64,000 nt of DNA from an uncultured Methanosarcinales archaeon (lineage in GTDB: Archaea > Nanobdellota > Nanobdellia > Woesearchaeales > JABIAG01), in contig CAZLQZ010000002.1 in assembly GCA_964561995.1 (NCBI GenBank), positions 38,442-102,441 on the forward strand, given 5' to 3'. Below are positions 1-41,245 of this stretch, one piece after another. A model generated the notes under the pieces. That model made no database searches and had not been told where the DNA came from. It saw nothing but the letters and a program-made list of their open reading frames with translations. The stretch's first letter is position 1. Each line of letters begins with the position of its first letter. The position numbers and the translations under genes are program-made.

Positions 1-22
1 TATTTTTTTTAAAGATTTCATA

Positions 23-901: not shown

Positions 902-988
902 AATGTGAATAATAAAATGACTATATTTAAATAGCTTACTAATTTATATATAATATTATTGGATATAATTAACCCTGACGAGATTATA

Positions 989-2386: not shown

Positions 2387-3493
2387 ATGAAAGTAAATCA
2401 AAAATATTTCAGGACAATTTGGGTGAAAGAAGATGACAATAAAATTATTCAAATAATTGACCAAAGAAGTCTTCCTCACGATTTTATAATTGAAGATTTA
2501 ACAAATGTTGATGAAGTTGCAGTTGCAATTAAAGATATGCATGTCAGAGGTGCGGGATTAATTGGGGCTACTGCCGGTTATGGTATGTATGTTGCTTGTT
2601 TAGAAGCTTTAGAAAATGATTTTGAAAATCATATTGTAAAATTAGGTGAAAAATTAAAATCTACTCGGCCAACCGCAGTAAATCTTGCATGGGCAGTTGA
2701 TAGACAATTAAAAGCAATTAGTCATGGTAATTCAATTCAAGAAAAAATAAATATTGCATTTAATACTGCAAAAGATATCGCGGATGAAGATGCAGAGTTT
2801 TGTAGAAGGCTCGGAGAACATGGTTTTAAGGTTATTGAAGAAATAAGTAAAAGAAAAAATGGTGAAGTTGTAAATATTCTTACTCATTGTAATGCTGGAT
2901 GGTTGGCTTTTGTTGATTACGGTTCGGCTACTGCTCCAATTTATGCTGCTTTTGAGAAAGGAATAAAAGTTCACGTATGGGTTGATGAAACTCGTCCAAG
3001 AAATCAAGGTGCAAGACTTACTGCTTGGGAATTAGGACAACATGGAGTTTCCCATCATATTATTGCTGATAATGTAGGTGGACATTTAATGCAACATAAT
3101 TTGGTTGATATGGTGATTGTTGGAACCGATAGAACTACTTATACTGGAGATGTAGCAAATAAAATTGGAACTTATCTTAAAGCTTTAGCTGCTAAAGATA
3201 ATAATGTGCCATTTTATGTAGCTTTACCATCTTCAACTTTTGATTGGAAAATGAAAGATGGTGTTAAGGAAATACCTATTGAAGAACGTAACCAAGATGA
3301 AGTAAAATATATTCAAGGATTACATGATGGTAATATAAAAAAAGTTCTTTTAACTCCTGATAATAGTCCTGCTTCAAATCATGCTTTTGATGTAACTCCA
3401 GCAAGATTAGTAACTGGTTTAATTACTGAAAGAGGAATTTGTGAAGCAAATGAAGAATCAATAAAAGCATTATTTCCTGAAAAAAATGACTGA
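2387..3493 (+). CDS. eIF-2B alpha/beta/delta family isomerase (MtnA / ribose-1,5-bisphosphate isomerase-like)
   Basis: Conserved GAGLIGATAGYGMYVA and C-terminal AFDVTPA motifs of the e2b2/MtnA family. Length 368 aa. Confidence 0.7.
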   Translation: MKVNQKYFRTIWVKEDDNKIIQIIDQRSLPHDFIIEDLTNVDEVAVAIKDMHVRGAGLIGATAGYGMYVACLEALENDFENHIVKLGEKLKSTRPTAVNLAWAVDRQLKAISHGNSIQEKINIAFNTAKDIADEDAEFCRRLGEHGFKVIEEISKRKNGEVVNILTHCNAGWLAFVDYGSATAPIYAAFEKGIKVHVWVDETRPRNQGARLTAWELGQHGVSHHIIADNVGGHLMQHNLVDMVIVGTDRTTYTGDVANKIGTYLKALAAKDNNVPFYVALPSSTFDWKMKDGVKEIPIEERNQDEVKYIQGLHDGNIKKVLLTPDNSPASNHAFDVTPARLVTGLITERGICEANEESIKALFPEKND

Positions 3494-4469
3494 AATATTT
3501 TGTGATCAAATAAAAAAATATTTTAAATTTGTGATTAATTCTAATGAATTAGGTTTAAATGAAATTAAAATAATAGATGTTAAATTTTTAGCAAGAGGTG
3601 CTTCTAATCTCAATTATATTGTAAATGTAGATAATAAAAAATTTGTTTTTAGGATGAATATTTTACAACAGAGTTCATTTAAAAATCAACTAAAAAGAGA
3701 ATTTGATATTTTAAAATATCTTGAAAATGAAAATATCAGTCCTAAAGCTTTCATATTAGATGAATCTAATTCTTTTTTCAAACATGATTTAATTATAATT
3801 GAATATATTGAAGGAAGTAAAATTAAACCAAATTTTGATTCTTTATCTAGAACAGCTAAAACATTAAGAAAGTTACATAAAATGCCAATTAAACAAGAAT
3901 TGAATTTAAAAAAAGGTGGATATCAAAATGATTTAAAAGAAATTGAGGAAGTAATTGTTCAATATCAAAATAAAAACAATTTTAATTTAGAATTTTTAGA
4001 AAAGATTAAACGTTTTTATGAAAAAATAAAACAACAAGTTAATAATTTAAATATTGAATCTTTTTGTATAATTCATAGAGATTTAGTTGGTTCTAACGGA
4101 ATTGATGATGAAAATGTTGTTAAATTAATTGATTGGGAAGTTCAAAAAATTGATGAATGTTTTATGGATTTTGGTGTTTTTTTATCACCTGCTAATACAT
4201 TATGGGATTTTGGCAGGATTTTATCTGAAAAAGAAGAAATGCATTTTTTGAAATCTTATTTTGAGAGAAATCCAAACTCTGAAGAATTGAAAAAAACAAA
4301 ATTAAGAAAAATTTTAGCAAGTATATTTTTGGCAATTTGGATAGAAAATAAATTATTAGATATTCAAAATGATGAAATGCCTAAAGAAATGTATGATGAA
4401 GATGTTATTAATAGATGGACTCGTTCAAAAGATGGAGTTATGGAATATTTAAAAGAAAAATTAAATTAA
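3486..4469 (+). CDS. APH/choline-kinase family small-molecule kinase (candidate LicA-like or MtnK-like)
   Basis: Brenner-type motif IIHRDLVGSNGI followed by a LIDWE motif, as in ChoK/APH kinases. It overlaps the upstream isomerase gene by 8 nt. Confidence 0.5.
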   Translation: MTEIFCDQIKKYFKFVINSNELGLNEIKIIDVKFLARGASNLNYIVNVDNKKFVFRMNILQQSSFKNQLKREFDILKYLENENISPKAFILDESNSFFKHDLIIIEYIEGSKIKPNFDSLSRTAKTLRKLHKMPIKQELNLKKGGYQNDLKEIEEVIVQYQNKNNFNLEFLEKIKRFYEKIKQQVNNLNIESFCIIHRDLVGSNGIDDENVVKLIDWEVQKIDECFMDFGVFLSPANTLWDFGRILSEKEEMHFLKSYFERNPNSEELKKTKLRKILASIFLAIWIENKLLDIQNDEMPKEMYDEDVINRWTRSKDGVMEYLKEKLN

Positions 4470-6331
4470 TATTCTACAGGTTTTTCTTCAACAATCTCTT
4501 TAAGATTTTTGCAGAATTCAATAATGTCTTTTTCTGTTAGAGTTCCAATATTTGCAAAATGTAAAACTTTACCAAGTAATGGTCCTTTTCCAGGATAAAA
4601 AATATAACCTCTTTCTTTTAATTTGTCATGAAATTCTTTAAAAGTATAATTATTTGGTGTAAGAACATTAACCATTAAATTAGACATTTCTTGTTCTTTT
4701 AATTGAAATTTAAAACCCATTTCTTTAAATCTTTTTTTTAATAAATCACCATTATTTTTGTATCTTTTCCATCTATTTTCTAATCCTTCTTTTATTAATT
4801 GATTTAATGCTTCATCAAGCATATAAAACAAAGGAATTTGGGGTGTAAATGGTGTTTGATTCTCTTTATCACTATATTTAATATATTTAAAAAAATCAAG
4901 ATAATATGATCTTGGTTTTACATCTTTACTTTTTTCAATAATTGATTTTTTATAACATATTATTCCTAAAACTGGTAATCCTCCAAGACATTTGTTAGTA
5001 TTTGTTAAACAATAATCAACATTGTCTTTAACCATGTCTAATGGTTCTCCACCTAATGCACTTATTGCGTCTACAATAAAACTTTTATCATATTTTTTGC
5101 AAAGTTCTCCTGTTTCACGAACGGGATTAAGCATTCCTGTTGATGTTTCCATTAAAACCATTGAAACTGCTTCAATTGTTGGGTCTTCTTTTAATCTTGC
5201 TTCAATTTCATCTAATTTAGGAAATTCGCCCCATTCATAATGTAAGTAAGACGTAGTTAATCCATGCAATTCACAAATTTCATTTATTCTTTCACCAAAT
5301 GCTCCATTTGCAACAACTAATAATTTTTTATCATCATGCAATATTGAAGATAATAGTGTCTCTGTTGCAGATGTTCCAGAACCACCAATAACTACTGCCG
5401 AATAATTTTTTTCATTTCCTCTAAAAACTTTAATTAATTTTTCTCTTACATTTTTGAATAAGTTTGAAAATTCAGGTTCTCTATGACCTATTTCGCTATA
5501 AACTGTTGCTTTTTTAACTTCTTCTGAAACATTAACTGGACCTGCAACAAACATTCTGTACCCTTGTTGTTCAATATTTTCATCTGTTTTATTATTTAAT
5601 AAATTTAGTTCTTTAAGTTTTTTTATGTCTTGTTCATCATCAACATCAAAACAAAATTTTAAACTTTTTGGAATTGTTAAATTGTAAAATCCTTGATCGT
5701 CAATCATATTTATTAAAGTTAAAGTATACCAACCTTTTAGTGCTGCAGGATTGCTTAAGTTGTCCCTTAATTTTTTGGCTTCTTTTCCTTTAATTTTCAT
5801 AATGCCCATATAGGTGTGAAGTTTTTTGTTTTTATAATCTGGATTTAGCGGTTGTCCTTTTATTGGAATTGTCATTTTAATAATCAAGGAAGTGTCATCT
5901 ACTAAAATAATCTCGTCTTCAAATTTAGGTTTAAATTCAACTTCTTTAGTTACTAAAATATTTTCTTTTTTAGAATTCATTAGTTCTTGTATTAATTCTT
6001 CATCATAAACTAAATCTCCATCACAAATCAATATTTCTTCATCTTCTTTTAATTCTGAGTTTAATTTTTCTAATCCTAAATATACACTGTATGCATTACC
6101 CAATTCTTCATATTTATTGTTAATAATTATATTATTGTGAATTTTTTTAATTAATTCATTTTTATAGCCAGCAATAACAAAAATATTTTCATCTTTCAAA
6201 CCCGCTTTTTTAAGTGCATCAATTTGTCTTTCTAAAATTGTTTTAGAACCTACTTTTAAAAGAGTTTTTGGAACATCAAGTACATTTTTCAATTCATAAT
6301 CACGACCTGCTGCTAAAATAATTGCTTTCAT
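4466..6331 (-). CDS. bifunctional fusion: N-terminal LicC-like nucleotidyl(cytidylyl)transferase plus C-terminal class V aminotransferase
   Basis: N-terminus MKAIILAAGRDYELKNVLDVPKTLLKVG (MobA/LicC-like NTP-transferase). The C-terminal ~360 aa have a class V aminotransferase fold (GGSGTSATETLL, TGMLNPV). Length 621 aa. Confidence 0.6.
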   Translation of the reverse strand: MKAIILAAGRDYELKNVLDVPKTLLKVGSKTILERQIDALKKAGLKDENIFVIAGYKNELIKKIHNNIIINNKYEELGNAYSVYLGLEKLNSELKEDEEILICDGDLVYDEELIQELMNSKKENILVTKEVEFKPKFEDEIILVDDTSLIIKMTIPIKGQPLNPDYKNKKLHTYMGIMKIKGKEAKKLRDNLSNPAALKGWYTLTLINMIDDQGFYNLTIPKSLKFCFDVDDEQDIKKLKELNLLNNKTDENIEQQGYRMFVAGPVNVSEEVKKATVYSEIGHREPEFSNLFKNVREKLIKVFRGNEKNYSAVVIGGSGTSATETLLSSILHDDKKLLVVANGAFGERINEICELHGLTTSYLHYEWGEFPKLDEIEARLKEDPTIEAVSMVLMETSTGMLNPVRETGELCKKYDKSFIVDAISALGGEPLDMVKDNVDYCLTNTNKCLGGLPVLGIICYKKSIIEKSKDVKPRSYYLDFFKYIKYSDKENQTPFTPQIPLFYMLDEALNQLIKEGLENRWKRYKNNGDLLKKRFKEMGFKFQLKEQEMSNLMVNVLTPNNYTFKEFHDKLKERGYIFYPGKGPLLGKVLHFANIGTLTEKDIIEFCKNLKEIVEEKPVEY

Positions 6332-7071
6332 TTTGCTTCCTCATTAATACTTTTTAATCTTTCACAATCTTCCGGATTATCAATATCAAAACAGAATTTT
6401 AAACCATCTGGAATTTCTACACTATAAAATTCTCCGTTGTTTACAATATCTACTAATGGAATTGTATACCATCCTTTTTGCATTTCTGAAGTTGATAAAT
6501 CATTTTTCAATTTGATTGCATTATTTTTAGAAATTCCTAAAATACCAATATAAGTATAGAGTTGTTTTTCTTGCCATATTCCTTCTAAATTTATTCCCTT
6601 AGTTGGTATTGTCATTTTAATTATTTTTTTGTTTTCATCAATAATCATTGTTTCATCTTTTAACTTTGAAGAAAAATCAATTTTTTTAGTAACTATTATG
6701 TCTTTTTTATTTGAATTCATAATCTGTTTAATTAATTCATCATCATAAACCAAGTCACCATCAAAAATTAAAACGCTTTCATCTTTATTCATTTTGTCAG
6801 TTATGAAATTAAGTGCAAGGTAAACGCTGTATGCATTATCAAATTCCATAAATTTTTCATTATAAATTATCTTATCATGAACAGCTTCAATTAATTCTCG
6901 TTTATAACCACTAATTACATAAATCTCTTCTTTTTTTAATCCTGCATTTTTTAATGCTTGAATCTGTTTTTCAAGAATTGTTGTTTCGCCTATTTTTAAT
7001 AATGTTTTAGGAACATCAATTATTCCTTGTAATCTTCTATTATATCCTGCTGCTAAAATTACTGCTTTCAT
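6328..7071 (-). CDS. LicC-like nucleotidyltransferase (paralog of the N-terminal domain of the preceding fusion)
   Basis: MKAVILAAGYNRRLQGIIDVPKTLLKIG is about 55% identical by eye to the fusion N-terminus. It overlaps the fusion gene by 4 nt. Confidence 0.6.
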   Translation of the reverse strand: MKAVILAAGYNRRLQGIIDVPKTLLKIGETTILEKQIQALKNAGLKKEEIYVISGYKRELIEAVHDKIIYNEKFMEFDNAYSVYLALNFITDKMNKDESVLIFDGDLVYDDELIKQIMNSNKKDIIVTKKIDFSSKLKDETMIIDENKKIIKMTIPTKGINLEGIWQEKQLYTYIGILGISKNNAIKLKNDLSTSEMQKGWYTIPLVDIVNNGEFYSVEIPDGLKFCFDIDNPEDCERLKSINEEAK

Positions 7072-7164
7072 ATATTAAAATAACTTTACTTCTTTTTTAA
7101 ATCTTATGAATTTCTTATCTAGAAATGGGAAAATTATATAAATGGAATTATGTTTTGAATAAAT
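7072..7164. promoter_or_regulatory. divergent intergenic promoter region with a TATA-like element (ttatataaat)
   Basis: 93-bp AT-rich spacer between divergently transcribed genes, containing TTATATAAAT. Confidence 0.3.
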
Positions 7165-9078
7165 ATGTTTATTTCAATAATATTATTTTTTGTATATTGT
7201 TTTGGGTTTGGACATAGTCTTTCTCTTTTTATTAAAGAATGGAATGCTTCTTTTTTTGAAAAAGTTATTATGAAAATTGGTTTTGGATTAGCACTTATAA
7301 CACCAGTTGCAATAATGATTAATCTCTTTAAGTTACCTGTGTTATGGTGGATATTTTTAATATTATCTTTAATTGGACCAATTTATTCATTTAGATCTGG
7401 AATTAAAATACCTAAAATTAAGTTTAAAAAATCTGATATGTATTTAATTTTTGTATTAATTATTTTTGTTTTTTCATTATATATGTATATGGGTGGAGCA
7501 TTATCTCATCCTTGGTTAAGTGATGGAGATTCATGGCAACATGCAACTTCAATTAAATATATTGCTTCTGAAAAAACTGTTTTTGCTCCAGAAGGACAGG
7601 AGACTGTATTTAGATATTTAGATACTTATCCTCCTGGATATGGTGCTGTACTTGCAATTCTTTATCAGACTGTTGGTAGTTTAATTCCAACAATCAAAGT
7701 ATTTAATGCATTAATAATTTCTTTGGGTTATTTATTTTTCTTTTTTTTCTTTAAATCTTTTATGAAGAGTAATAAAAAAGCTTTAATGGCCACATTTATT
7801 TTAGCAATGGTTCCTTCTTTTGTAAGTAGATTTATTTGGGCTCATTCATTAGTCATCACCTTACTTCCTGTATTTTTATATGCATTGGTTAAAATTGAAG
7901 ATAATAAACGATGGGCAATTATTGCAGGAATTGTTTTTGGATGTACCACTTTAATACAACCTACTCAGCCAGTTAAGTTTTTTGTGATGTTTTTAATTTT
8001 CATTTCTATAAAATTATTTAAAGATAAAAATCTTTTAAAACCATATCTTATTGTTTTACTTTTTACCATTATTTTTTCTCTTTTTTGGTGGGGACCTATG
8101 GTGGTCAAATATCAAGATGACTTCTTTTTTGAGTTTATGGGTGGACAACAATCTTTTTACAAAGAGGATGGCACTAGAGGGAGTAAACCTTATATTGGTG
8201 GGTTAGGAACTGCAACTAGAATGTATTATTTCGATGATTTTTTTACCGCAAAAAGTCAAAATCAGATAAACAATCCAGTAGGTTGGGGTTCTATAGTTAG
8301 TATTTTATTTGCTTTTGGTTTGATTTCTTTATTTTTTAATTATAAAAAATTAAAACCTAAAAAAGCAAATTGGAGATTGATTTCTTTATTTTGGTTTGTT
8401 TTTACTTTTGCAGGACTTTATGGTGGTACTGTTTTCCCTATTGCTTTGGTTTCATTTAGATTTTGGACTTTAGTTAGTATTCCCATGGCTTTATTAGCTG
8501 TTGAAGGAATGTGGTTTTTGATTAATTTGGGTAAAAAAATTAATATTCCAGCATTTATTATTTTAATAATTGTATTATTAGGAGTTTTTGTTACTTCAGG
8601 TGTTGCAAAATTTGAATTAAACACTATGCAATGGGCACCAGAGGGAGCCCATATGCAATTTGGTCAGAGTGAAGCTTATTCTTGGATGTCTGAACTTCCA
8701 AAAGAAACTAAATTTTTCTATCCTTGTCATTGGGAAAAATTTGGTGATTTTACTGTTATTGCTTATGACTTATATGCTTGTCCTTGGTGTGATGAGGAAA
8801 TCAAATTTAGGGAAAAATTATTTAATGCAAATTATAGTATAGACCCTGTAGATTTAAGAAATTGGTTGGTTAAAAATAATTATGAATATTTTATGATTGA
8901 GGGTAATTGTATTGATGCAATGTCTCGACATGTTTTAAATGCTTATAATATCACAGATCCAGTATTAAGAAAGAAAGCAGGTCTTGATGCCACAAATCAG
9001 TTTTTAACAAATGTTTCTGCATCAGGATTGTTTACTCTATCTCATCAAACACAAGGCAGTTGGATATGGCGAATATAG
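7165..9078 (+). CDS. large polytopic membrane protein, GT-C-fold glycosyltransferase-like
   Basis: About 13 predicted TM helices followed by a Cys/Trp-rich soluble C-terminal domain. It lies inside the glycosylation cluster. Confidence 0.35.
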   Translation: MFISIILFFVYCFGFGHSLSLFIKEWNASFFEKVIMKIGFGLALITPVAIMINLFKLPVLWWIFLILSLIGPIYSFRSGIKIPKIKFKKSDMYLIFVLIIFVFSLYMYMGGALSHPWLSDGDSWQHATSIKYIASEKTVFAPEGQETVFRYLDTYPPGYGAVLAILYQTVGSLIPTIKVFNALIISLGYLFFFFFFKSFMKSNKKALMATFILAMVPSFVSRFIWAHSLVITLLPVFLYALVKIEDNKRWAIIAGIVFGCTTLIQPTQPVKFFVMFLIFISIKLFKDKNLLKPYLIVLLFTIIFSLFWWGPMVVKYQDDFFFEFMGGQQSFYKEDGTRGSKPYIGGLGTATRMYYFDDFFTAKSQNQINNPVGWGSIVSILFAFGLISLFFNYKKLKPKKANWRLISLFWFVFTFAGLYGGTVFPIALVSFRFWTLVSIPMALLAVEGMWFLINLGKKINIPAFIILIIVLLGVFVTSGVAKFELNTMQWAPEGAHMQFGQSEAYSWMSELPKETKFFYPCHWEKFGDFTVIAYDLYACPWCDEEIKFREKLFNANYSIDPVDLRNWLVKNNYEYFMIEGNCIDAMSRHVLNAYNITDPVLRKKAGLDATNQFLTNVSASGLFTLSHQTQGSWIWRI

Positions 9079-10445
9079 TTGATAAGTTTAAAAGAATGGA
9101 CAAATTTGTATTTATACTTTTTATTTTTTTTATTTTTTTTACTTTATTTTTTTTAACTCCTTGGATTCATGCAAATGATGGAGCAGGTTATTATTCTTAT
9201 GTTAGGTCTGCTTTTGTGGATAAAGATTTAAATTTACAAAATGAAAAGGAATTTTTTGAACAAAAGTTTCAAGTTTCAGCAATTCAACGAGATAATTTCA
9301 CAGGAGTTTATTATTCTCAATATCCTATTGGAACTCCTTTATTATGGAGTCCTTTTTATTTAATGGGTCATTTATTTGCAAATAGTTTTGGATATGATAC
9401 TGATGGATATTCATTTCCTTATATTTATATGATTAATTTAGGTTCTGCAATACTTGGATTTTTAGCTCTACTTATGATTTATAATTTTTGTAGAAAGTTT
9501 TTTTCAAAGAAAGTTTGTTTTCTTTCAATTATAACTTTTTGGCTTTCATCATCTATTTTTTATTATATGTATTTTGAAGCATCTTTAAGTCATTGTGCAT
9601 CTTTGTTTGCAGTTACGTCTTTTATTTATTATTGGTATAATACAAAAAATAATAGAACGTATTTACAATGGTTTTTTTTGGGATTGTTATCTTCTTTAAT
9701 GTTAATTGTTAGATATCAAAATGTTTTTTTTATGGTTTTACCTTTGATTTTTTCTTTATTATATTATTTAACAGTAATTAGAAAAAAAGATTGGAAGAAA
9801 ATGTTAAATTTATTTTTTAAAAATGTTTTATACCTAATGGTATTCCTAATTGGATTGATCCCACAACTGCTAGTTTTAAAATATCAACATGGCTATGTTT
9901 TTTCTGCAGAAAGTCATTATCATAATTCTTTTACTTTAATTAAAGCTTCTTATAATTGGATTAATGTTTTATTTTCAACAAATCATGGTTTATTTTTATG
10001 GACTCCCGTAATATTTATTTCAGTATTTGGTTTAATTTATGGCATTAAAATTAACAAAAATAAAGAAACAAAAAAATTAATTTTTGCTTTTTTGGTTGCA
10101 TTTTCATTACAATTATTATTAATATCAACAATAACTGCTTGGAATGGTGCTCAATCTTATGGTCATAGAATGTTTATTAATTGCTCTCTTATTTTTGTTT
10201 TTGGTTTTGCTATATTGATTAATAAGTTACAAAAACACATTAATTTTTCATATTTAATTGTAATTTGTATGATTTTTATAGGTTGGAATTTTAATTTGAT
10301 GATTCAGTATGGTTTAAGGTTAATTCCCGCTGAAGGCTCAATTAATTTTTTAGAAGTAATTAAAAATACTTTTTTTGTAATCCCTAACAAATTAATCGGT
10401 ATTCTTAAGAAATTCTTATTCTCTAGAAGTTCTTTTGTTTCATAG
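9060..10445 (+). CDS. polytopic membrane protein, GT-C / PMT/ArnT-like candidate
   Basis: 461 aa, all-TM architecture. It overlaps the upstream gene. Confidence 0.35.
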   Translation: MDMANIVDKFKRMDKFVFILFIFFIFFTLFFLTPWIHANDGAGYYSYVRSAFVDKDLNLQNEKEFFEQKFQVSAIQRDNFTGVYYSQYPIGTPLLWSPFYLMGHLFANSFGYDTDGYSFPYIYMINLGSAILGFLALLMIYNFCRKFFSKKVCFLSIITFWLSSSIFYYMYFEASLSHCASLFAVTSFIYYWYNTKNNRTYLQWFFLGLLSSLMLIVRYQNVFFMVLPLIFSLLYYLTVIRKKDWKKMLNLFFKNVLYLMVFLIGLIPQLLVLKYQHGYVFSAESHYHNSFTLIKASYNWINVLFSTNHGLFLWTPVIFISVFGLIYGIKINKNKETKKLIFAFLVAFSLQLLLISTITAWNGAQSYGHRMFINCSLIFVFGFAILINKLQKHINFSYLIVICMIFIGWNFNLMIQYGLRLIPAEGSINFLEVIKNTFFVIPNKLIGILKKFLFSRSSFVS

Positions 10446-12614: not shown

Positions 12615-12621
12615 TTCAAAA

Positions 12622-14982
12622 ATGAATATTTCAAAAATAACTAAAAATAAACACTTTTTTTCAATTTTAATTATTTTAATTGTCATTTTAATAATCTCTT
12701 TTCCTCTTTTCAATTTAAATAATTCAAAAAGATCAGGAGATTGGAGAAATGGAGACACTCCTGGATTTAATCTCATTCAAAAAGTAATTATTGAAGACCA
12801 TGGTTGGCCACTATGGGACCATTATACTTTTGGTGGAAGACCAATGGCTGGATTAGGTATGCCTTTATTATATCCTGTTGCTTTAATTTTAGCATTATTT
12901 TTTATTCCTTCTGCAGTTTTAAATTTAATGTTAATTTTACATCTTTTACTTGCTGGAATTGGGATGTATTTTTTAGGTTATGAAGTTTTAAAAAGTAAAA
13001 GGTCTGCAACAATTGCGGCAGTTATTTATTCTTTTTCTCCTTATTTAATGGCAAGTTTGCGTCATCCATTTTGGCTTTACGGAATTGCTTTTATACCTTT
13101 AGAATTTTTTTTGGCAATTAAAACATACAAAAGCAAGAATTATGTTAATTATAGTATTTTGCTTGGAATTATTTTTGCTCTACATTTTTTAAGTTCAGGA
13201 GTTCTTCAATGGTATTATGCTGTTTTGTTAGTATCTTTTTATTTTGTATTCAAAGCATTTGGAAAAAACTTTTTTTCAAGAGCAATAAAATCAACAATAA
13301 TCATTTTTATTTTTGTTTTAGTTATGTTTTCATTAGTTGCAGTAAGATTTTTGCCTTCAAATGAATTTACTAGTTATACAAATCGGGGTACTGGTCTTCC
13401 AATTGAAGAAATTTTAAGAGTTGGACATATTAGTTTTAGTGGTTCTTTAGATACATTTATTTATCCTTTTAATCCAAAATCAAAAGATGGTGGACATAGT
13501 TATGGTCAAGTTGGTGTAATTGGAACTGTTTTTTTATTATTTGGATTAATTTGTTATTTTAAGAAAAAACAATTTCTTTCAAGGAAGAAAGATATTTTTT
13601 TATTTTTAATTCTTGTTATGATTGGAGTTACCATATTTGCAACTGGAATTTTTATTGAACAACTTTACAATCTTCCTGGAATGAGTTCTCAAAGAGGTTT
13701 GGATAGGTCATTAATTCTATTTGTTTTGTCTGCTTCATTATTTGCAGGATATGGTTTTAATTGTTTACAATTAAAATTACATGAAAAAGGATATTCAATG
13801 AAAAAATTGAAGTTTATTTTTTTAATTACATTATTATTAGTTTGGTTAAGTTTATTTGTAGTAAATCTTTCGAAAATTAATCAACAAAATGCTGAATTTG
13901 AACATTATTCAATTACAGAAAACAATCCTGTTTTTCTTATGATTGCAGAAGATAAAGGAATTTTTAGATTTCATGTTTTTGAAGTTACAGGAATTGATTA
14001 TAACAATTTTTTAGGTTCGTCTTTACCAAATGAACAGGAATCAGTTTATGGTACTTATGGTGGGGGATGGGATTATCGTTATTTTAATGTTTTTTTAGGT
14101 TCAACTTTTAGAGATCCTTCTAAATTATGGGGTATGTTTAATGTCAAATATATTATTTCTTCAATTGAAAGAGAAAATGAAGATTTTGAATTAATAGAGA
14201 AATTTGAAAATGTTCCAAAAGAAACAATCAATCAGCAAAGTTATCAAAATGTTGCATACTTATATGAAAATAAGAAGGTTATGGAAAGGTCAACAATAAT
14301 CCCTACTTCGATTCTTGTTGTTGGAAATGAAGATTCTACTTTAAAGACAATTTACGCTTTAATAATTAATCCAAATATAGACCCTAAGAAAACGATTGTA
14401 GTTCAAGGGAAACAGAAAATAAATGATTATTCTTTAATGGAATTAAGTCCATTTGATATTGTTCTCTTATCAACTGGTTCAGTTGATGAAAATTCGGCAT
14501 TTATTATAAGAAGATTTGAAGAAAATGGAGGAATTGTTTTTCCAAGGATACTTGAAGGTGAAAATTCAATTAATGAAGGAGAAATATATGATAAGTTATC
14601 TGAATTTAATGAAACAGTAATTGATTCAGAAATAGAAATTGTAAGTTATTATGATTCAACTCCTAATAAAATGGAATTAAAAGTTACTACAAATGAAAGT
14701 GCATTATTGTTTATTGCTGAGAAATATACCTTATATCCTGGATGGACTGCTAAAATAGATGGTAAAAATACAGACATACTGCTTGCAAATGGAGTATTAA
14801 GTACAATTAATGTCCCTATAGGAACTCATAATATTGTATTTGAGTATTATCCAGCAAGTTTTAGAAAAGGTTTAATAACCACTTCTGTTTCATTATTGTT
14901 AATTGTAGTTTATTTCATTTATTATTATTTTAAAAAAAGAAAAAATGGCAAAAATATGCGGAATATTGAAAACAAAGAGTAA
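12622..14982 (+). CDS. YfhO-like GT-C membrane glycosyltransferase candidate
   Basis: 786 aa. Many N-terminal TM helices, a large soluble domain and a terminal TM helix (TTSVSLLLIVVYFIYYYF), as in the YfhO family. Confidence 0.4.
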   Translation: MNISKITKNKHFFSILIILIVILIISFPLFNLNNSKRSGDWRNGDTPGFNLIQKVIIEDHGWPLWDHYTFGGRPMAGLGMPLLYPVALILALFFIPSAVLNLMLILHLLLAGIGMYFLGYEVLKSKRSATIAAVIYSFSPYLMASLRHPFWLYGIAFIPLEFFLAIKTYKSKNYVNYSILLGIIFALHFLSSGVLQWYYAVLLVSFYFVFKAFGKNFFSRAIKSTIIIFIFVLVMFSLVAVRFLPSNEFTSYTNRGTGLPIEEILRVGHISFSGSLDTFIYPFNPKSKDGGHSYGQVGVIGTVFLLFGLICYFKKKQFLSRKKDIFLFLILVMIGVTIFATGIFIEQLYNLPGMSSQRGLDRSLILFVLSASLFAGYGFNCLQLKLHEKGYSMKKLKFIFLITLLLVWLSLFVVNLSKINQQNAEFEHYSITENNPVFLMIAEDKGIFRFHVFEVTGIDYNNFLGSSLPNEQESVYGTYGGGWDYRYFNVFLGSTFRDPSKLWGMFNVKYIISSIERENEDFELIEKFENVPKETINQQSYQNVAYLYENKKVMERSTIIPTSILVVGNEDSTLKTIYALIINPNIDPKKTIVVQGKQKINDYSLMELSPFDIVLLSTGSVDENSAFIIRRFEENGGIVFPRILEGENSINEGEIYDKLSEFNETVIDSEIEIVSYYDSTPNKMELKVTTNESALLFIAEKYTLYPGWTAKIDGKNTDILLANGVLSTINVPIGTHNIVFEYYPASFRKGLITTSVSLLLIVVYFIYYYFKKRKNGKNMRNIENKE

Positions 14983-16705
14983 AGATACTTCTAATTTAAT
15001 TAAAGATATGACTCTTTTAATGAAGCATGAGTCTTGGCATAAAGAGTTTAATTTTTCTAAAAAAAATATTTCTTTTGGAATTGTAAGTTTAAATCAAATT
15101 AATTCAGAACAGCCAATTTGGAATAAAGATAAAACGAAATGCATTATTATGTCGGGAAAAATTTTTGATTATGATTTTAAAAATGTAAAAAATGATGCAG
15201 AATATATTTTATCTTCTTATGAAAAATTTGGTAAAGAATTTATTAAAAAATTAAATGGTATATTTGCTTTCGCATTATTTGATTTTAAAGAAGAGTCTAT
15301 TGTTCTTGTTAATGATAGATATGGTTTTAGACCTTTGTATTATCATATTGATTTTGATAAAATTATTTTTGCTTCTGAGGTTAAATCAATTATTGCTGAT
15401 AAAACAATAAAAAAGGAGATTGATTGGAAAGCATGGGGTGATTTTTTTTATTTTGGAGAAATACATGGTAATAATACTTTTTTTAAGAATATTTCAGCTT
15501 TACCTCCCGCATCAATTTTAACTTTTAAAAATTCAAAAGTAAGTATTGAAAAATATTATGATTTTAGTTTTATAAAATCTGATGATTCAAAAAAAGCAAA
15601 TTATTTTGTAGATAAATCTATTGAGCTTTTGAATAGAAGTTTAGATAAACAAACAAAATGGTTGAAAGAAGCAGATTTATTGCTGACTGGCGGATTTGAT
15701 TCAAGATGTATTGCAATGATAATTAAAAATCAGAATAGAATTAAATTAAATACTTTTACTACCTTAAAAGAGGGTGATGGTGATAAAGATAAAATTTATG
15801 CAAAAAAAGTTGCAGATTTTCTCGGTTTCAAAAATACTTTTGTTCCATTATCAAAAGATCTTTATCAAAAACATTTTCTTAAGACATTTTATTTAACTGA
15901 TGGAATGACTAATGGTCATTTGTTTTTAATGCCTTTAATTGAAAAATTAGATAAAAAACATATTAATTTTGATGGAATTGTGGGTGATATATTATTAAGG
16001 GGAAGTTTTACTGATGAATATAAATTAAAGATTGGTAGTAAAAAATTAATTAATACTTTATTAAATAAAAATAAATCTAAAATTGTTAAAAAAGTATTTA
16101 ATAGTGATGTTGCAAAAATAATTAATAATTCAATATTGGAAGAAACTAAAAAAGAACTTAATAATTTTAAAGACACTAATAATTTTTTAACATTATACCT
16201 TTTGATGAATGAAGGAAGAAGAAAAGTTGCTTTAAATTCAATGAATACTTTATTATTAAAAAAAGAAAGTTTTGCTCCTTTTTTGGATAATGATTTTGTT
16301 GAATTTGCTTTAACAATTCCTACTAAATTAAAGAATAAAGAAGCAATTTATAATAAGATCATGAATAAATTGAATTCTGAATGTATGAAAATATCAAGTA
16401 CTAGAGGATTAGTTGAAAATAAAAATTTAATTTTTTATTTAAAACGTTTAACTTTTATTAGAAATATTAGATCAAGATTATATTTCTTTTTATCTTCTTC
16501 TTCATTATTTATGAAGTTTTTAACAAAAATTGGTTTATATAAAAGAGATTCAAAAGACAATTTGAACTTTGAAGAAAAACTTTTGAAAAAATGTACTGAA
16601 AGAGATTTTATTAATGATTTCAAACATAATTCTGATCTGTATTCTAAGTATCGTTTACAATTTCTATTGTGGTATAATCTCTTTTTTAAAGGGAAAGTTT
16701 TATAA
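14945..16705 (+). CDS. asparagine synthetase (glutamine-hydrolysing)-like amidotransferase
   Basis: N-terminal glutamine amidotransferase class II-like region (ICGI...) and PP-loop region (LLTGGFDSR). It overlaps the upstream gene by 38 nt. Confidence 0.55.
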   Translation: MAKICGILKTKSKDTSNLIKDMTLLMKHESWHKEFNFSKKNISFGIVSLNQINSEQPIWNKDKTKCIIMSGKIFDYDFKNVKNDAEYILSSYEKFGKEFIKKLNGIFAFALFDFKEESIVLVNDRYGFRPLYYHIDFDKIIFASEVKSIIADKTIKKEIDWKAWGDFFYFGEIHGNNTFFKNISALPPASILTFKNSKVSIEKYYDFSFIKSDDSKKANYFVDKSIELLNRSLDKQTKWLKEADLLLTGGFDSRCIAMIIKNQNRIKLNTFTTLKEGDGDKDKIYAKKVADFLGFKNTFVPLSKDLYQKHFLKTFYLTDGMTNGHLFLMPLIEKLDKKHINFDGIVGDILLRGSFTDEYKLKIGSKKLINTLLNKNKSKIVKKVFNSDVAKIINNSILEETKKELNNFKDTNNFLTLYLLMNEGRRKVALNSMNTLLLKKESFAPFLDNDFVEFALTIPTKLKNKEAIYNKIMNKLNSECMKISSTRGLVENKNLIFYLKRLTFIRNIRSRLYFFLSSSSLFMKFLTKIGLYKRDSKDNLNFEEKLLKKCTERDFINDFKHNSDLYSKYRLQFLLWYNLFFKGKVL

Positions 16706-16728
16706 AAGGTTAAATTCATTATTAAAGC

Positions 16729-17511
16729 ATGAAATTTAAAGAAATTCTTCATGGAACAGCAGCGTCCAGGGATGCTGAACAAGGATATTCTGGTTTGAAA
16801 TATCAAATTTATGAATTTCTTGCAGCTGTACTTGTAAAAATTCTAATGTATACTCCAATTACTGCAAACCAAATTACTTTATTGGGAATTGTTTTTGTTT
16901 ATGTTGCTGCTATATTATTTGGTTATGGAACTTTATATCTTGGAATATTAGCAGTTGGTTTTATTTATCTTGGAGAGTTAATGGATGCAACTGATGGAAC
17001 TTTGGCAAGATCTAAAAAAGCTTGTTCTAAATTACAATCTAATATTTTAGGAAATTTATATCATTCTTCAGCTTATTCAATACTTTTTTTGGGAATTGGA
17101 TTTGGTGTTTTTGTAGGTACTGGAAATTGTATTTTTATTCTATTGGGTGGAATTTCTGCTTTTTTTCAACAAACAATGGGTTTGATTCGTTTCTTAGGAA
17201 GTCAAGTAATGTTTAAGAATAGAGAATTGTTAAAAGAAAAAGGAAAAGAAAATTTATTAGATGAAGCAGATGAAAAAAAATTATTTAAAGTTGGTAAAAA
17301 ATCATTCAAGAATTTCTTTATTGAATTGATTGGTGCACCAATTAAACATTTAAGATTAATAATTATTGTAGTATTAATTTTGAATTATACAATATATCCA
17401 ATGGCGTTTTCAATATTTACTATATTTTATGCGATTTTCATTCCAATTAAAACGCTTGGTTTCTTGCATAGTATTTATTATTCTTTCAAAAGAATAGAAA
17501 CAAAGAATTAA
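16729..17511 (+). CDS. CDP-alcohol phosphatidyltransferase family protein
   Basis: DATDGTLAR matches the DxxDGxxAR core of the CDP-alcohol phosphotransferase signature. Polytopic membrane protein. Confidence 0.55.
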   Translation: MKFKEILHGTAASRDAEQGYSGLKYQIYEFLAAVLVKILMYTPITANQITLLGIVFVYVAAILFGYGTLYLGILAVGFIYLGELMDATDGTLARSKKACSKLQSNILGNLYHSSAYSILFLGIGFGVFVGTGNCIFILLGGISAFFQQTMGLIRFLGSQVMFKNRELLKEKGKENLLDEADEKKLFKVGKKSFKNFFIELIGAPIKHLRLIIIVVLILNYTIYPMAFSIFTIFYAIFIPIKTLGFLHSIYYSFKRIETKN

Positions 17512-41179: not shown

Positions 41180-41245
41180 AAACTAGTTTTACCTGTAAAA
41201 CTACAGGTGTGGTACTCAATTATTGTGTGCGCTACAGGTGGTGTT
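41180..41245 (+). promoter_or_regulatory. candidate operator/promoter of the nrd operon: palindrome CCTGTAAAACTACAGG plus a second CTACAGGTG copy, and a GGTGG SD
   Basis: Perfect inverted repeat at 41192-41207. CTACAGGTG repeated 32 bp downstream (41233-41241). Confidence 0.35.

What the first reader, a model, noticed from the sequence alone, without database searches (positions are those of the whole stretch)
3486..17511. Kennedy-pathway-like phospho-headgroup activation and transfer module inside an archaeal glycosylation island
Four genes inside the island form a candidate activation and transfer route. They are an APH/choline-kinase-family kinase (3486-4469), two paralogous LicC-type nucleotidyltransferases (6328-7071, and the N-terminus of 4466-6331), and a CDP-alcohol phosphatidyltransferase (16729-17511, DxxDGxxAR). 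In bacteria, LicA/LicC-type enzymes activate phosphocholine, phosphoethanolamine or aminoethylphosphonate as CDP- or CMP-conjugates, and CDP-alcohol phosphotransferases move the phospho-headgroup onto an acceptor. Archaeal lipid headgroup chemistry normally uses CDP-archaeol instead. This combination next to AglB, flippase and GT genes therefore suggests phosphocholine, phosphoethanolamine or phosphonate decoration of an N-glycan or surface glycan, which is not a described feature of archaeal N-glycosylation.
Basis: partly seen in the sequence, partly recalled or inferred. Interest (0 to 1): 0.65.

Follow-up and report, generated by a model that had tools for sequence, protein, structure and literature searches.

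The report
Archaeal head-group activation module lacking PEP mutase
A small-genome (DPANN-like) archaeon carries a conserved gene set that looks like the bacterial machinery for attaching aminoethylphosphonate to the cell surface, but the carbon-phosphorus-bond enzyme is missing, a methylthioribose-1-phosphate isomerase sits beside it instead, and the aminotransferase active site is altered, so it probably attaches a different, undescribed amino-alcohol phosphate.

Summary
All four genes are real. The kinase (3486-4469) is closest in fold to choline/ethanolamine kinases, not MtnK. Both nucleotidyltransferases are LicC/PntC-type, not sugar-1-P types. Gene 16729-17511 has the CDP-alcohol phosphotransferase fold.

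Gene 4466-6331 is an end-to-end homologue of T. denticola Tde1415, a PntC cytidylyltransferase fused to an AEP transaminase. A canonical MtnA isomerase (2387-3493) lies beside it.

Across 163 related loci the transaminase, cytidylyltransferase, CDP-alcohol transferase and often a Wzx flippase travel together. PEP mutase accompanies only transaminases with Arg at the PhnW-Arg340 position. The window belongs to a DPANN-like class with His there (also Cys→Gly, Tyr→Phe). That class never has PEP mutase nearby. MtnA directly adjoins the transaminase in 8 of 25 such loci and in none of about 100 others.

Three details qualify the module:
- The kinase is unique to this window.
- The fused cytidylyltransferase motif is degenerate, and the stand-alone paralogue is intact.
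- The transferase lacks its last two catalytic aspartates.

Best reading: a Kennedy-like module for an amino-alcohol phosphate, possibly derived from 5-methylthio- or 5-deoxy-ribulose-1-phosphate. The chemistry is inferred. The result is a new variant of a known kind.

The parts
2387..3493 (+). MtnA-type aldose-1-phosphate to ketose-1-phosphate isomerase (5-methylthioribose-1-P / 5-deoxyribose-1-P isomerase). Proposed supplier of the keto-phosphate substrate.
   Evidence: NF004326 scores 453 bits (cut-off 271) and TIGR00512 scores 404 bits (cut-off 279). The catalytic Cys (THCNAG) and Asp (GTDR) are kept against 1T9K, 6A34 and 2YVK. Homologues 65-77% identical lie directly next to the aminotransferase in 8 of 25 informative loci of the same class, and in none of about 100 loci of the other classes.
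3486..4469 (+). APH-superfamily small-molecule kinase with a choline/ethanolamine-kinase-like fold. It is a lineage-specific addition. Its start overlaps the MtnA stop by 8 nt.
4469..5569 (-). Aminotransferase domain (residues ~255-621 of the 621-aa fusion). Class V, AEP-transaminase-like, of the 'His class' (H591 in place of PhnW Arg340).
   Evidence: TIGR03301 scores 331 bits (cut-off 360.8). Best solved relatives are 1M32 (PhnW, E=6e-52) and 6PD1 (E=2e-51). The Lys aligned with the NK motif of solved AEP transaminases (K447; the PLP lysine by my recollection) is conserved. H591, G282 and F345 replace the R, C and Y that are invariant in 42 Arg-class loci; PhnW and Tde1415 also carry these R, C and Y.
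5597..6331 (-). Fused LicC/PntC-like nucleotidyltransferase domain (residues 1-245). Probably inactive.
   Evidence: The signature reads AAGRDYEL, where all fusion homologues without an extra paralogue have AAGxNxRL, so Arg13 has become Glu. The same degeneration (GKKDLNI) is seen in L004, the only other locus in this set where a stand-alone nucleotidyltransferase of the same type directly precedes a fused one.
6328..7071 (-). Stand-alone LicC/PntC-type cytidylyltransferase (NT2). Probably the active enzyme. It overlaps the fusion gene by 4 nt.
   Evidence: The AAGYNRRL motif is intact. Best solved relatives are LicC (1JYK, E=2.6e-10), Tde1415 PntC and IPCT. It is 49-68% identical to the nucleotidyltransferase that precedes the aminotransferase in related loci.
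7165..10445 (+). Two polytopic membrane proteins (637 aa at 7165-9078; 461 aa at 9060-10445). They are GT-C-like and transcribed divergently from the nucleotidyltransferase/aminotransferase genes. Candidate extracytoplasmic transferases; their role is not shown.
   Evidence: They have about 13 and 10 hydrophobic segments, with DGDSWQH and NDGAGYYSY loop motifs. Homologues 43-47% identical sit in the same position in L088 and in the P0010, P0011 and P0014 contigs, where the shorter one hits PMT_2.
16729..17511 (+). Variant CDP-alcohol phosphotransferase. It has D86xxD89GxxAR94, then H112 and Y116 where the family has Asp3 and Asp4. Proposed head-group transferase.
   Evidence: Pfam PF01066 scores 26.2 bits (cut-off 22), matching the N-terminal half only. 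In its 12-member subfamily D86, D89, G90, A93, R94, Y111, H112, S113 and Y116 are invariant and G108 nearly so. In the AlphaFold model (pLDDT 80), Foldseek hits 1-19 are all CDP-alcohol phosphotransferases, with TM about 0.5. Orthologues lie on the same contigs as the fusion orthologues, next to a flippase.
17533..19029 (+). Wzx/MurJ-superfamily flippase. A recurrent neighbour of the transferase.
   Evidence: Polysacc_synt scores 83 bits. A flippase lies next to the CDP-alcohol transferase and/or the nucleotidyltransferase in L002, L004, L006, L007, L010/L147, L086, L090, L094 and L096, and in the P0278 and P0280 contigs.

Best explanation
This is a DPANN-type version of the bacterial 'phosphonyl tailoring' (PntC-AEPT-CDP-alcohol transferase) module, working without PEP mutase.

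Proposed flow:
1. MtnA converts a 5-substituted ribose-1-phosphate into the corresponding ribulose-1-phosphate. Candidate substrates are 5-methylthioribose-1-P from MTA, or 5-deoxyribose-1-P from the 5'-deoxyadenosine that radical-SAM enzymes release.
2. The AEP-transaminase-like domain aminates the C2 keto group. The product is a 2-amino-2-deoxy-pentitol 1-phosphate, which is in effect a C-substituted phosphoethanolamine.
3. The stand-alone LicC/PntC-type cytidylyltransferase (6328-7071) makes the CDP-conjugate. The fused copy has lost its catalytic Arg.
4. The membrane CDP-alcohol phosphotransferase variant (16729-17511) passes the phospho-amino-alcohol to a membrane-bound acceptor, either a lipid-linked glycan or a lipid. 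The acceptor is then handled by the adjacent Wzx flippase and the island's GT-C enzymes or AglB.
5. The ethanolamine-kinase-like kinase (3486-4469), found only in this lineage, probably re-phosphorylates the free amino alcohol as a salvage entry.

Shown: the gene families, the domain architecture, the conserved linkage, the absence of PEP mutase nearby, and the active-site substitutions. Inferred: the substrate identities, the order of steps and the acceptor.
For: Architecture: the fusion aligns end to end with Tde1415, a characterised PntC-AEPT enzyme (PMC6697681). NT2's best solved relatives are LicC and PntC.

Linkage:
- CDP-alcohol transferase genes lie within about 1-2 kb of the aminotransferase or nucleotidyltransferase in many loci of all three aminotransferase classes.
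- In the His class the usual order is flippase, transferase, nucleotidyltransferase, aminotransferase, then MtnA where present.
- Orthologues of the window's own transferase variant sit on the same contigs as the fusion orthologues.

MtnA:
- It directly abuts the aminotransferase in 8 of 25 informative His-class loci, plus the P0011 and P0014 contigs.
- The adjacency persists where the other neighbours differ and in both gene orientations. In L088 the nucleotidyltransferase, aminotransferase and MtnA genes are co-directional with gaps of 1-2 nt.
- It is never seen with Gln- or Arg-class loci.
- It is a canonical MtnA.

Not a phosphonate:
- PEP mutase lies within 10 kb in 21 of 42 Arg-class loci and in 0 of 32 His-class loci. 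It is absent from all 64 kb of the window (Pfam).
- R591H, C282G and Y345F are fixed in the His class, against 100% R, C and Y in the Arg class; PhnW and Tde1415 also carry R, C and Y.
- The window has Asp104 where PntC has its amine-binding Glu104, as in LicC. In the paper this goes with a larger pocket.

Dead and live nucleotidyltransferase pair.

Kinase fold closest to amino-alcohol kinases.
Against: - MtnA is absent next to the module in 17 of 25 informative His-class loci. That includes close relatives of loci that have it: L090 and L094 compared with L006 and L096. It is therefore either encoded elsewhere or dispensable.
- Most MtnA-aminotransferase pairs are convergent and so not co-transcribed.
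- No aminotransferase is known to act on ribulose-1-phosphates, and literature searches found no such pathway.
- The radical-SAM genes of these islands could explain MtnA as by-product disposal.
- L002 pairs the module with a phosphonate-type ABC transporter.
- The transferase lacks Asp3 and Asp4, which are needed for catalysis in characterised members (my knowledge of the AF2299, DIPPS and PIPS work). Its activity is therefore uncertain.
- The rest of the genome could not be searched.
Confidence: 0.38

Rival explanations
1. The module makes and transfers an amino-alcohol phosphate from a different, central keto-phosphate. One example is dihydroxyacetone phosphate giving serinol phosphate, then CDP-serinol. 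On this reading MtnA, and the kinase coupled to it, is a neighbour for another reason: disposal of the MTA or 5'-deoxyadenosine produced by the island's many SAM and radical-SAM enzymes.
For: - Two thirds of His-class loci lack an adjacent MtnA.
- In L147, L010 and L007 a B12-binding radical-SAM gene occupies the exact slot that MtnA has in L006 and L096. Radical-SAM genes recur in these islands.
- Gln-class relatives form self-sufficient three-gene operons (transferase, fused nucleotidyltransferase-aminotransferase, second nucleotidyltransferase) with no supply enzyme, which implies a common metabolite as substrate.
- MtnA is fully canonical.
Against: - By-product salvage genes are not usually clustered with particular radical-SAM enzymes.
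- The DHAP-shunt aldolase that would complete disposal is absent from the window.
- MtnA sits directly against the aminotransferase, not against the radical-SAM genes. In L088 it is the third gene of a tightly packed co-directional trio.
- MtnA is never seen beside Gln- or Arg-class modules, even though two of those loci also carry B12 radical-SAM genes.
Confidence: 0.25
2. It is a true 2-aminoethylphosphonate module, as in T. denticola. Phosphonoacetaldehyde is converted to AEP, then to CMP-AEP, and AEP is then transferred. PEP mutase and the decarboxylase would be encoded elsewhere, or the phosphonate would be scavenged from a host or the environment.
For: - The fusion is homologous end to end with Tde1415.
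- TIGR03301 (PhnW-AepZ) scores 331 bits, just under its cut-off of 361.
- Homologous transferases sit in bona fide PEP-mutase clusters such as L027, L024, L026 and L028.
- Predicted AEP phosphonolipid clusters with CDP-alcohol transferases are described in PMC8942020.
- L002 carries a Phosphonate-bd ABC transporter next to the module.
- DPANN archaea are scavengers (my knowledge).
Against: - There is no PEP mutase in the 64 kb or in any of 32 His-class loci, against 21 of 42 Arg-class loci.
- The Arg aligned with PhnW Arg340 is His, and two further AEPT-invariant residues are changed, in every member of the class.
- If AEP were imported, no aminotransferase would be needed.
- The specific MtnA linkage is left unexplained.
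Confidence: 0.17
3. The kinase phosphorylates ethanolamine (or choline), NT2 makes CDP-ethanolamine or CDP-choline, and the CDP-alcohol transferase attaches it. The aminotransferase and MtnA would serve something else.
For: - The kinase model is closest to choline/ethanolamine kinases, including LicA.
- NT2's best solved relative is LicC.
- Asp104 is the LicC-type residue.
- All three Kennedy steps are encoded in the window.
Against: - The kinase is absent from all 31 other His-class loci, while the nucleotidyltransferase, aminotransferase and transferase persist.
- Pfam Choline_kinase does not hit the window's kinase.
- No choline or ethanolamine transporter (LicB-type) or LicD was seen in the window.
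- The kinase is translationally coupled to MtnA, not to NT2.
- The fusion of the nucleotidyltransferase to an aminotransferase argues that the aminated product is the nucleotidyltransferase's substrate, as it is in Tde1415.
Confidence: 0.12
4. MtnA, the kinase and the aminotransferase are a remnant of methionine salvage, with the aminotransferase converting 2-keto-4-methylthiobutyrate to methionine. The surface module would be unrelated.
For: The N-terminal nucleotidyltransferase-like and class-V aminotransferase domains of Mycoplasma penetrans MetRS resemble PntC-AEPT, and that aminotransferase converts KMTB to methionine (PMC13215547). The chain 9OS7 matches the window's aminotransferase at E=4e-32.
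Against: - The enzymes between MtnA and KMTB (MtnB, MtnC or MtnW/X, MtnD) are not in the window.
- The kinase is not MtnK-like.
- The aminotransferase is closer to AEP transaminases (180 bits) than to the MetRS domain (112 bits).
- Its constant partners are the nucleotidyltransferase and the CDP-alcohol transferase, including in loci without MtnA.
Confidence: 0.05

Closest known systems
Tde1415 (PntC-AEPT) of Treponema denticola and the phosphonyl-tailoring (Pnt) pathway (PDB 6PD1/6PD2; PMC6697681)
   Same: It has the same two-domain architecture: an N-terminal LicC-like cytidylyltransferase and a C-terminal class-V aminotransferase. The alignment runs over 2-614 of 621 residues (E=9e-59). The logic is the same, with the aminotransferase making the amine that the cytidylyltransferase activates. 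It also sits in a cell-surface glycan context.
   Different: - No PEP mutase or decarboxylase is nearby.
- His, Gly and Phe replace the Arg, Cys and Tyr conserved in Tde1415, PhnW and all PEP-mutase-linked homologues.
- The amine-binding Glu104 is Asp here.
- The fused cytidylyltransferase motif is degenerate in this window, and a separate paralogue is present.
- The host is archaeal.
- MtnA is a neighbour.
Predicted AEP phosphonolipid clusters with a CDP-alcohol phosphatidyltransferase ('Burkholderiales_CDP-OH' / Group 1; PMC8942020)
   Same: The combination is AEPT-type aminotransferase, two PntC-type cytidylyltransferases and a CDP-alcohol transferase. Homologous transferases lie directly downstream of the aminotransferase in PEP-mutase-containing loci in my set: L024, L026, L027 and L028.
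   Different: Those clusters are defined by Ppm and Ppd and are bacterial, and their products are still uncharacterised. This one has neither gene, carries MtnA and a kinase, and has a transferase variant without Asp3 and Asp4. It is embedded in an AglB, flippase and glycosyltransferase island.
Kennedy pathway / bacterial Lic pathway (LicA choline kinase, LicC cytidylyltransferase; eukaryotic CEPT1-type CDP-alcohol phosphotransferases)
   Same: It shows the three-step logic of kinase, cytidylyltransferase and CDP-alcohol phosphotransferase. The kinase fold is nearest to ethanolamine and choline kinases, including LicA. NT2 is nearest to LicC.
   Different: - The kinase is not conserved with the module.
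- The conserved source of the phospho-amine is an aminotransferase.
- Bacteria use LicD, not a CDP-alcohol phosphotransferase, for transfer to glycans.
- There is no choline-specific evidence.
IPCT-DIPPS of hyperthermophilic archaea (CTP:inositol-1-P cytidylyltransferase plus CDP-inositol phosphotransferase; PDB 4MND, 2XME)
   Same: It is an archaeal precedent for a LicC-like cytidylyltransferase feeding a CDP-alcohol phosphotransferase with a CDP-activated polar alcohol rather than CDP-archaeol. Both are weak sequence or fold hits.
   Different: NCBIfam scores lie far below cut-off (54 against 580). There is no inositol-phosphate synthase, and the product there is a soluble compatible solute.
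MtnA/DrdI-based salvage of MTA and 5'-deoxyadenosine (methionine salvage, DHAP shunt; use of the 5-deoxyribose pool for a bioactive sugar, PMC8102628)
   Same: A canonical MtnA isomerase is coupled to an upstream kinase, the same gene logic as mtnK-mtnA or drdK-drdI. There is precedent for SAM by-products being diverted into a secondary product.
   Different: The kinase is not MtnK- or DrdK-like. No dehydratase or aldolase follows. The downstream neighbour is an aminotransferase-cytidylyltransferase.

Membership tests
LicC/PntC-type cytidylyltransferase | N-terminal nucleotide-binding signature (L-x-A-G-x-G-x-R-L type, with the conserved Arg) followed by the P-K motif | tested here: met
   NT2 (6328-7071) has ILAAGYNRRL...VPK. 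Its best solved relatives are LicC, PntC and IPCT.
LicC/PntC-type cytidylyltransferase | The same signature in the fused domain of 4466-6331 | tested here: not met
   The motif reads ILAAGRDYEL, with Arg replaced by Glu, whereas all 11 closely related fusions in the alignment have G-x-N-x-R-L. L004's fused copy is degenerate in the same way. The fold family is still recognisable (NTP_transf_3, 41.9 bits).
LicC/PntC-type cytidylyltransferase | CTP specificity and a phospho-amine or phosphonate substrate | not testable with these tools
   The only lead is a residue-level hint: Asp104 is LicC-like rather than the PntC Glu104.
AEP transaminase (PhnW/AepZ, AEPT) | Score above the curated family threshold | tested here: not met
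   TIGR03301 scores 331.4 against a cut-off of 360.8, NF010006 scores 259 against 296, and TIGR02326 scores 243 against 401.
AEP transaminase (PhnW/AepZ, AEPT) | Class-V fold with the PLP lysine | tested here: met
   Aminotran_5 scores 78 bits. K447, in the NTNK motif, is invariant and aligns with the NK Lys of PhnW and Tde1415. That this Lys is the PLP-binding residue is my recollection.
AEP transaminase (PhnW/AepZ, AEPT) | Conserved Arg at the PhnW Arg340 position, in the FRIxNxG motif. I recall this Arg as the binder of the acidic group; that point is not confirmed in the literature held here. | tested here: not met
   His591 is found in all 28 His-class sequences, and Arg in all 42 Arg-class sequences; PhnW and Tde1415 also carry Arg. 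The literature check on Arg340 found nothing.
AEP transaminase (PhnW/AepZ, AEPT) | Genomic association with PEP mutase and phosphonopyruvate decarboxylase | tested here: not met
   No EDKxxxxxNS ORF and no tblastn hit to PEP mutase was found in the window or in any His-class locus. The rest of the genome was not available.
CDP-alcohol phosphotransferase (PF01066) | Pfam gathering threshold | tested here: met
   The score is 26.2 bits against 22, but only profile positions 3-58 of 152 are matched.
CDP-alcohol phosphotransferase (PF01066) | First half of the signature: D-x2-D-G-x2-A-R | tested here: met
   D86ATD89GTLAR94 is invariant in the 12-member subfamily.
CDP-alcohol phosphotransferase (PF01066) | Second half of the signature: G-x3-D-x3-D (Asp3 and Asp4) | tested here: not met
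   The sequence is G108NLYH112SSAY116, so His and Tyr take the place of the two Asp. This is conserved across the subfamily. Other His-class loci keep D...D (L006, L090, L147) or D...H (L002-L004, L084, L086).
CDP-alcohol phosphotransferase (PF01066) | Six-helix membrane fold of the family | tested here: met
   The AlphaFold model has pLDDT 80. Foldseek ranks 1-19 are all AF2299, PIPS/PgsA1 or IPCT-DIPPS, with probability 1.00 and TM about 0.5.
Choline/ethanolamine kinase (LicA/ChoK/EK) | Family profile (PF01633) and choline-kinase motif | tested here: not met
   Only the general APH profile hits the window's kinase. PF01633 does hit two of its distant relatives, P0124 and P0127. A Brenner-type H-x-D-x4-N motif and an I-D-W-E motif are present.
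Choline/ethanolamine kinase (LicA/ChoK/EK) | Closest fold | tested here: inconclusive
5-methylthioribose kinase (MtnK) | Family profile or closest structure | tested here: not met
MtnA (5-methylthioribose-1-phosphate isomerase) | Curated thresholds plus the catalytic Cys and Asp | tested here: met
   NF004326 scores 453 against 271 and TIGR00512 scores 404 against 279. The ribose-1,5-bisphosphate isomerase model scores only 160 against 314. THCNAG and GTDR are conserved.

The most novel reading that the evidence does not exclude
DPANN-type archaea divert a SAM by-product (MTA or 5'-deoxyadenosine, as the ribose-1-phosphate) through MtnA and a re-tuned AEP-transaminase homologue. The product is a new CDP-activated head group, 2-amino-2-deoxy-5-methylthio- or 2-amino-2,5-dideoxy-pentitol phosphate. 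A variant CDP-alcohol phosphotransferase then installs it on surface glycans or on scavenged membrane lipids. This would be a phosphate-ester counterpart of the bacterial phosphonate-tailoring pathway and a Kennedy-type reaction in archaea.
Probability: 0.3. Interest if true: 0.8.

Novelty: new variant of a known kind. Interest (0 to 1): 0.62.

Why it matters
If the reading is right, four things follow:
- It would add a new head group and a new biosynthetic route (isomerase, aminotransferase, cytidylyltransferase, CDP-alcohol transferase) to archaeal surface chemistry.
- It would show that AEP-transaminase/PntC modules are not reliable markers of phosphonate production. Two large classes, with His and Gln at the key position, occur without PEP mutase.
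- It would give a testable handle on how genome-reduced DPANN archaea decorate their envelope or remodel scavenged lipids. Archaeal head-group attachment is otherwise thought to run through CDP-archaeol.
- It would link disposal of SAM by-products to envelope biosynthesis.

Even if the head group turns out to be AEP or serinol phosphate, the module would still be an undescribed feature of archaeal glycosylation islands.

Tried and rejected
- **PEP mutase:** I looked for it by motif (EDKxxxxxNS) and by tblastn with four PEP-mutase sequences taken from related Streptomyces, Desulfobacca and other loci. The window and all His-class loci gave nothing. Pfam scans of essentially every ORF of 100 aa or more in the 64 kb also found no PEP mutase and no TPP decarboxylase.
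- **Kinase as MtnK:** rejected.
- **Kinase context:** I tried to learn its role from relatives. The word-indexed search found only 2 distant hits. The exhaustive search found 30-35% identical relatives. Their contexts (L083, L164-L166) were uninformative. Some relatives are fused to DUF2064/CofC nucleotidyltransferases, which fits 'kinase feeds a nucleotidyltransferase' but gives no substrate.
- **Organism:** the window's own genome is not among the GTDB species representatives scanned, and cluster look-ups gave no names. I infer the taxon (DPANN-like) only from the nearest homologues.
- **Literature:** searches for an MtnA-aminotransferase-cytidylyltransferase pathway, for DPANN CDP-alcohol transferases, for CMP-AEP transferases and for PhnW Arg340 found nothing directly relevant.
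- **Methionine-salvage reading of the aminotransferase:** considered after finding the M. penetrans MetRS fusion and ranked low.

Full report
**The observation**

The window is a 26% G+C archaeal glycosylation island. AglB/STT3 lies at 28643-31486(-). A Wzx-type flippase lies at 17533-19029. Many GT2/GT4 glycosyltransferases, SAM methyltransferases and sugar-modifying enzymes surround the finding.

- APH kinase, 3486-4469, 54.6 bits.
- NTP_transf_3 in 6328-7071, 43.6 bits.
- NTP_transf_3 in the N-terminus of 4466-6331, 41.9 bits.
- CDP-OH_P_transf in 16729-17511, 26.2 bits against a threshold of 22, with DATDGTLAR at residues 86-94.

The remaining 60% of 4466-6331 is a class-V aminotransferase. 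It scores 331 bits on the PhnW-AepZ model, just under the 361-bit cut-off. The whole 621-residue protein aligns over residues 2-614 with Tde1415 of Treponema denticola (6PD1, E=9e-59). Tde1415 is the structurally and biochemically characterised fusion of a phosphonate cytidylyltransferase (PntC) with an AEP transaminase (PMC6697681).

Immediately beside it lies 2387-3493, whose stop overlaps the kinase start by 8 nt. It passes two curated MtnA models (453 against 271 bits; 404 against 279 bits). It keeps the catalytic Cys and Asp seen in solved MtnA structures. It scores poorly on the ribose-1,5-bisphosphate isomerase model.

The kinase is not MtnK:
- There is no NCBIfam MtnK hit and no PDB sequence hit.
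- The margin over homoserine kinase II and APH(9) is small, so I call it a 'choline/ethanolamine-kinase-like amino-alcohol kinase' as a lead rather than a proof.

The stand-alone nucleotidyltransferase is nearest to LicC, then PntC and IPCT. Its matches to sugar-1-phosphate families lie far below their thresholds.

**Comparative genomics**

I collected 163 loci in three ways. One was an alignment-based scan of GTDB species genomes. One was a scan of JGI/ENA metagenomes. The third was exact-protein look-ups.

The nearest relatives, 50-69% identical, come from DPANN-type archaea: Woesearchaeota, Nanoarchaeota, Pacearchaeota and 'Archaeon BMS3Abin17'. The window's own genome is not among the species representatives.

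The aminotransferase homologues fall into three classes, defined by the residue aligned with fusion residue 591. This position corresponds to the Arg of the FRIxNxG motif in PhnW and Tde1415.
- The Arg class has 42 sequences. It contains all 21 loci that have a PEP mutase within 10 kb.
- The Gln class has 57 sequences, mostly bacterial.
- The His class has 28 full-length sequences in 32 distinct loci and is DPANN-like. The window belongs to it.
- Neither the Gln class nor the His class ever has a PEP mutase nearby.

Two further positions that are 100% conserved in the Arg class, and also found in PhnW and Tde1415, are replaced throughout the His class: Cys282 becomes Gly, and Tyr345 becomes Phe.

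MtnA homologues, 65-77% identical to the window's, occur only with the His class. They always lie directly against the 3' end of the aminotransferase. This holds in 8 of 25 distinct loci with enough downstream sequence, and in two further contigs seen only as gene lists. The adjacency survives changes in the other neighbours and in orientation. In L088/L089, the closest relatives, the nucleotidyltransferase, aminotransferase and MtnA genes are co-directional with 1-2 nt between them.

**The transferase**

CDP-alcohol phosphotransferase-like genes lie next to the aminotransferase or nucleotidyltransferase in many loci of all three classes. These include bona fide PEP-mutase clusters, which matches the predicted 'CDP-OH' phosphonolipid clusters in the literature (PMC8942020).

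In His-class loci the usual order is flippase, transferase, nucleotidyltransferase, aminotransferase, then MtnA where present. The window keeps the transferase-flippase pair about 10 kb away, inside one long co-directional gene run. Orthologues of exactly this transferase (47-57% identical) lie beside a flippase on the same contigs as the fusion orthologues P0010, P0011 and P0014.

The window's transferase belongs to a subfamily that keeps D-x2-D-G-x2-A-R. It has an invariant His and Tyr where the family has its third and fourth Asp. Its predicted fold still matches only CDP-alcohol phosphotransferases.

**The two nucleotidyltransferases**

The fused domain reads AAGRDYEL where related fusions read AAGxNxRL. 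The stand-alone paralogue directly upstream reads AAGYNRRL. The only other locus in this set with a stand-alone nucleotidyltransferase of the same type directly upstream of a fused one is L004, and its fused motif is also degenerate (GKKDLNI). I conclude that the fused domain is probably inactive here and that 6328-7071 is the working cytidylyltransferase.

**The kinase**

The kinase is absent from every other locus. Its nearest relatives are only 30-35% identical, and their contexts are uninformative. It is therefore an add-on of this lineage and not part of the conserved mechanism.

**Interpretation**

The conserved unit is aminotransferase, LicC/PntC-type cytidylyltransferase, CDP-alcohol phosphotransferase and usually a flippase. 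This is the bacterial phosphonyl-tailoring logic. In this class, however, the C-P-bond enzyme is missing, the aminotransferase active site is changed at three otherwise invariant positions, and MtnA is a specific neighbour.

The simplest chemistry that uses all parts runs as follows. MtnA makes a 1-phospho-2-ketose (5-methylthio- or 5-deoxy-ribulose-1-P). The aminotransferase converts the C2 keto group to an amine, giving a substituted phosphoethanolamine. The cytidylyltransferase makes the CDP-conjugate, and the membrane transferase passes it to a lipid-linked glycan or a lipid. The ethanolamine-kinase-like enzyme would then re-phosphorylate the free beta-amino alcohol.

Two residue-level observations fit a larger substrate whose phosphate sits one atom further from the carbonyl than in phosphonoacetaldehyde. 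The window has Asp where PntC has Glu104, and His where the transaminases have Arg. This is inference, not proof.

**Weaknesses**

- Two thirds of His-class loci have no adjacent MtnA. Close relatives differ in its presence.
- In some loci a B12-binding radical-SAM gene sits in MtnA's slot, and such genes recur in these islands. MtnA could therefore be there to dispose of 5'-deoxyadenosine.
- L002 pairs the module with a phosphonate-type ABC transporter and sulfatase-family genes.
- No literature supports transamination of ribulose-1-phosphates.
- A related nucleotidyltransferase-aminotransferase fusion in Mycoplasma MetRS transaminates KMTB.
- The rest of the genome could not be searched for PEP mutase.

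For these reasons I keep four rivals: another central keto-phosphate such as DHAP, true AEP, kinase-driven P-Etn or P-Cho, and a methionine-salvage remnant.

**Verdict**

The Kennedy-like activation and transfer reading and the family assignments hold. Phosphocholine has no specific support, and phosphonate is disfavoured. The most likely product is an undescribed amino-alcohol phosphate.

I rate it a new variant of a known kind, with interest 0.62.

Noticed in passing
L012 9271-12587 (Tumebacillus permanentifrigoris); also L011, L013-L015, L018, L021, L034, L117-L127 and others: A large 'Gln class' of AEP-transaminase homologues has Gln at the PhnW-Arg340 position (57 sequences, mostly bacterial). 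They sit in compact operons of CDP-alcohol transferase, fused nucleotidyltransferase-aminotransferase and a second nucleotidyltransferase, with no PEP mutase within 10 kb. The head group is unknown. These would be mis-annotated as AEP pathways.
   Followed up: partly
L054 8450-11155: In an Oscillospiraceae MAG, a FGGY-family sugar kinase directly precedes a Gln-class aminotransferase, with an AraC regulator upstream and a PHP phosphoesterase downstream. This hints that these aminotransferases act on keto-sugar phosphates.
   Followed up: no
L147 11940-13589; L001 17927-19321 (just upstream of window position 1); L088 17550-18947; L004 21338-22582; L038, L040: B12-binding radical-SAM genes recur in His-class loci. 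In L147, L010 and L007 the gene sits exactly where MtnA sits in L006 and L096. They also occur in two Arg-class Omnitrophota loci. They may perform Fom3-like C-methylation of a cytidylylated head group, and they are a local source of 5'-deoxyadenosine.
   Followed up: partly
L002 13115-19236: Beside the fusion/CDP-alcohol transferase pair lie two sulfatase-family genes (of the EptA/LtaS-like superfamily), a second nucleotidyltransferase and a Phosphonate-bd ABC transporter. There is no MtnA. This suggests uptake of a phosph(on)ate precursor in that relative.
   Followed up: no
L147 13674-14906 and 15238-16809; homologues in L005, L006, L090, L094, L096, L118: The groundwater DPANN loci share a conserved protein of about 410 aa with no Pfam hit, placed right after the aminotransferase or MtnA. 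They also share a HAD-nucleotidyltransferase fusion a few genes on.
   Followed up: partly
L094 3472-6659: A 797-aa protein with PPDK_N and PEP-utiliser domains (a possible small-molecule phosphotransferase) lies next to an extra nucleotidyltransferase, adjacent to the flippase/nucleotidyltransferase/aminotransferase module. This would be a different 'kinase' solution from the window's APH kinase.
   Followed up: no
window 7165-10445: Two polytopic membrane proteins without Pfam hits (637 aa with a DGDSWQH loop; 461 aa with an NDGAGYYSY loop, whose homologues hit PMT_2) are conserved divergently from the nucleotidyltransferase/aminotransferase genes in window-type islands. They are probably GT-C-type extracytoplasmic transferases.
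   Followed up: partly
window 14945-16705: An AsnB-type glutamine amidotransferase lies directly upstream of the CDP-alcohol transferase variant. Relatives keep the order AsnB, TylF-type methyltransferase, transferase, flippase. It may amidate a uronic acid in the same glycan.
   Followed up: no
window 47655-48548 (-): A PLD-superfamily (PLDc_2) protein of 297 aa may be a phospholipid head-group exchange or synthase enzyme. That would be relevant if the organism remodels scavenged lipids.
   Followed up: no
window 41223-44004: An NrdR-like regulator (zinc ribbon plus ATP-cone), an anaerobic ribonucleotide reductase NrdD and its activase lie in one block. This points to an anaerobic lifestyle.
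   Followed up: no
window 1-2352 and 11877-12614, 19061-20588, 39227-39976: The island is unusually dense in SAM-dependent methyltransferases, including two TylF/Methyltransf_24-type O-methyltransferases. This implies a heavily methylated glycan.
   Followed up: no
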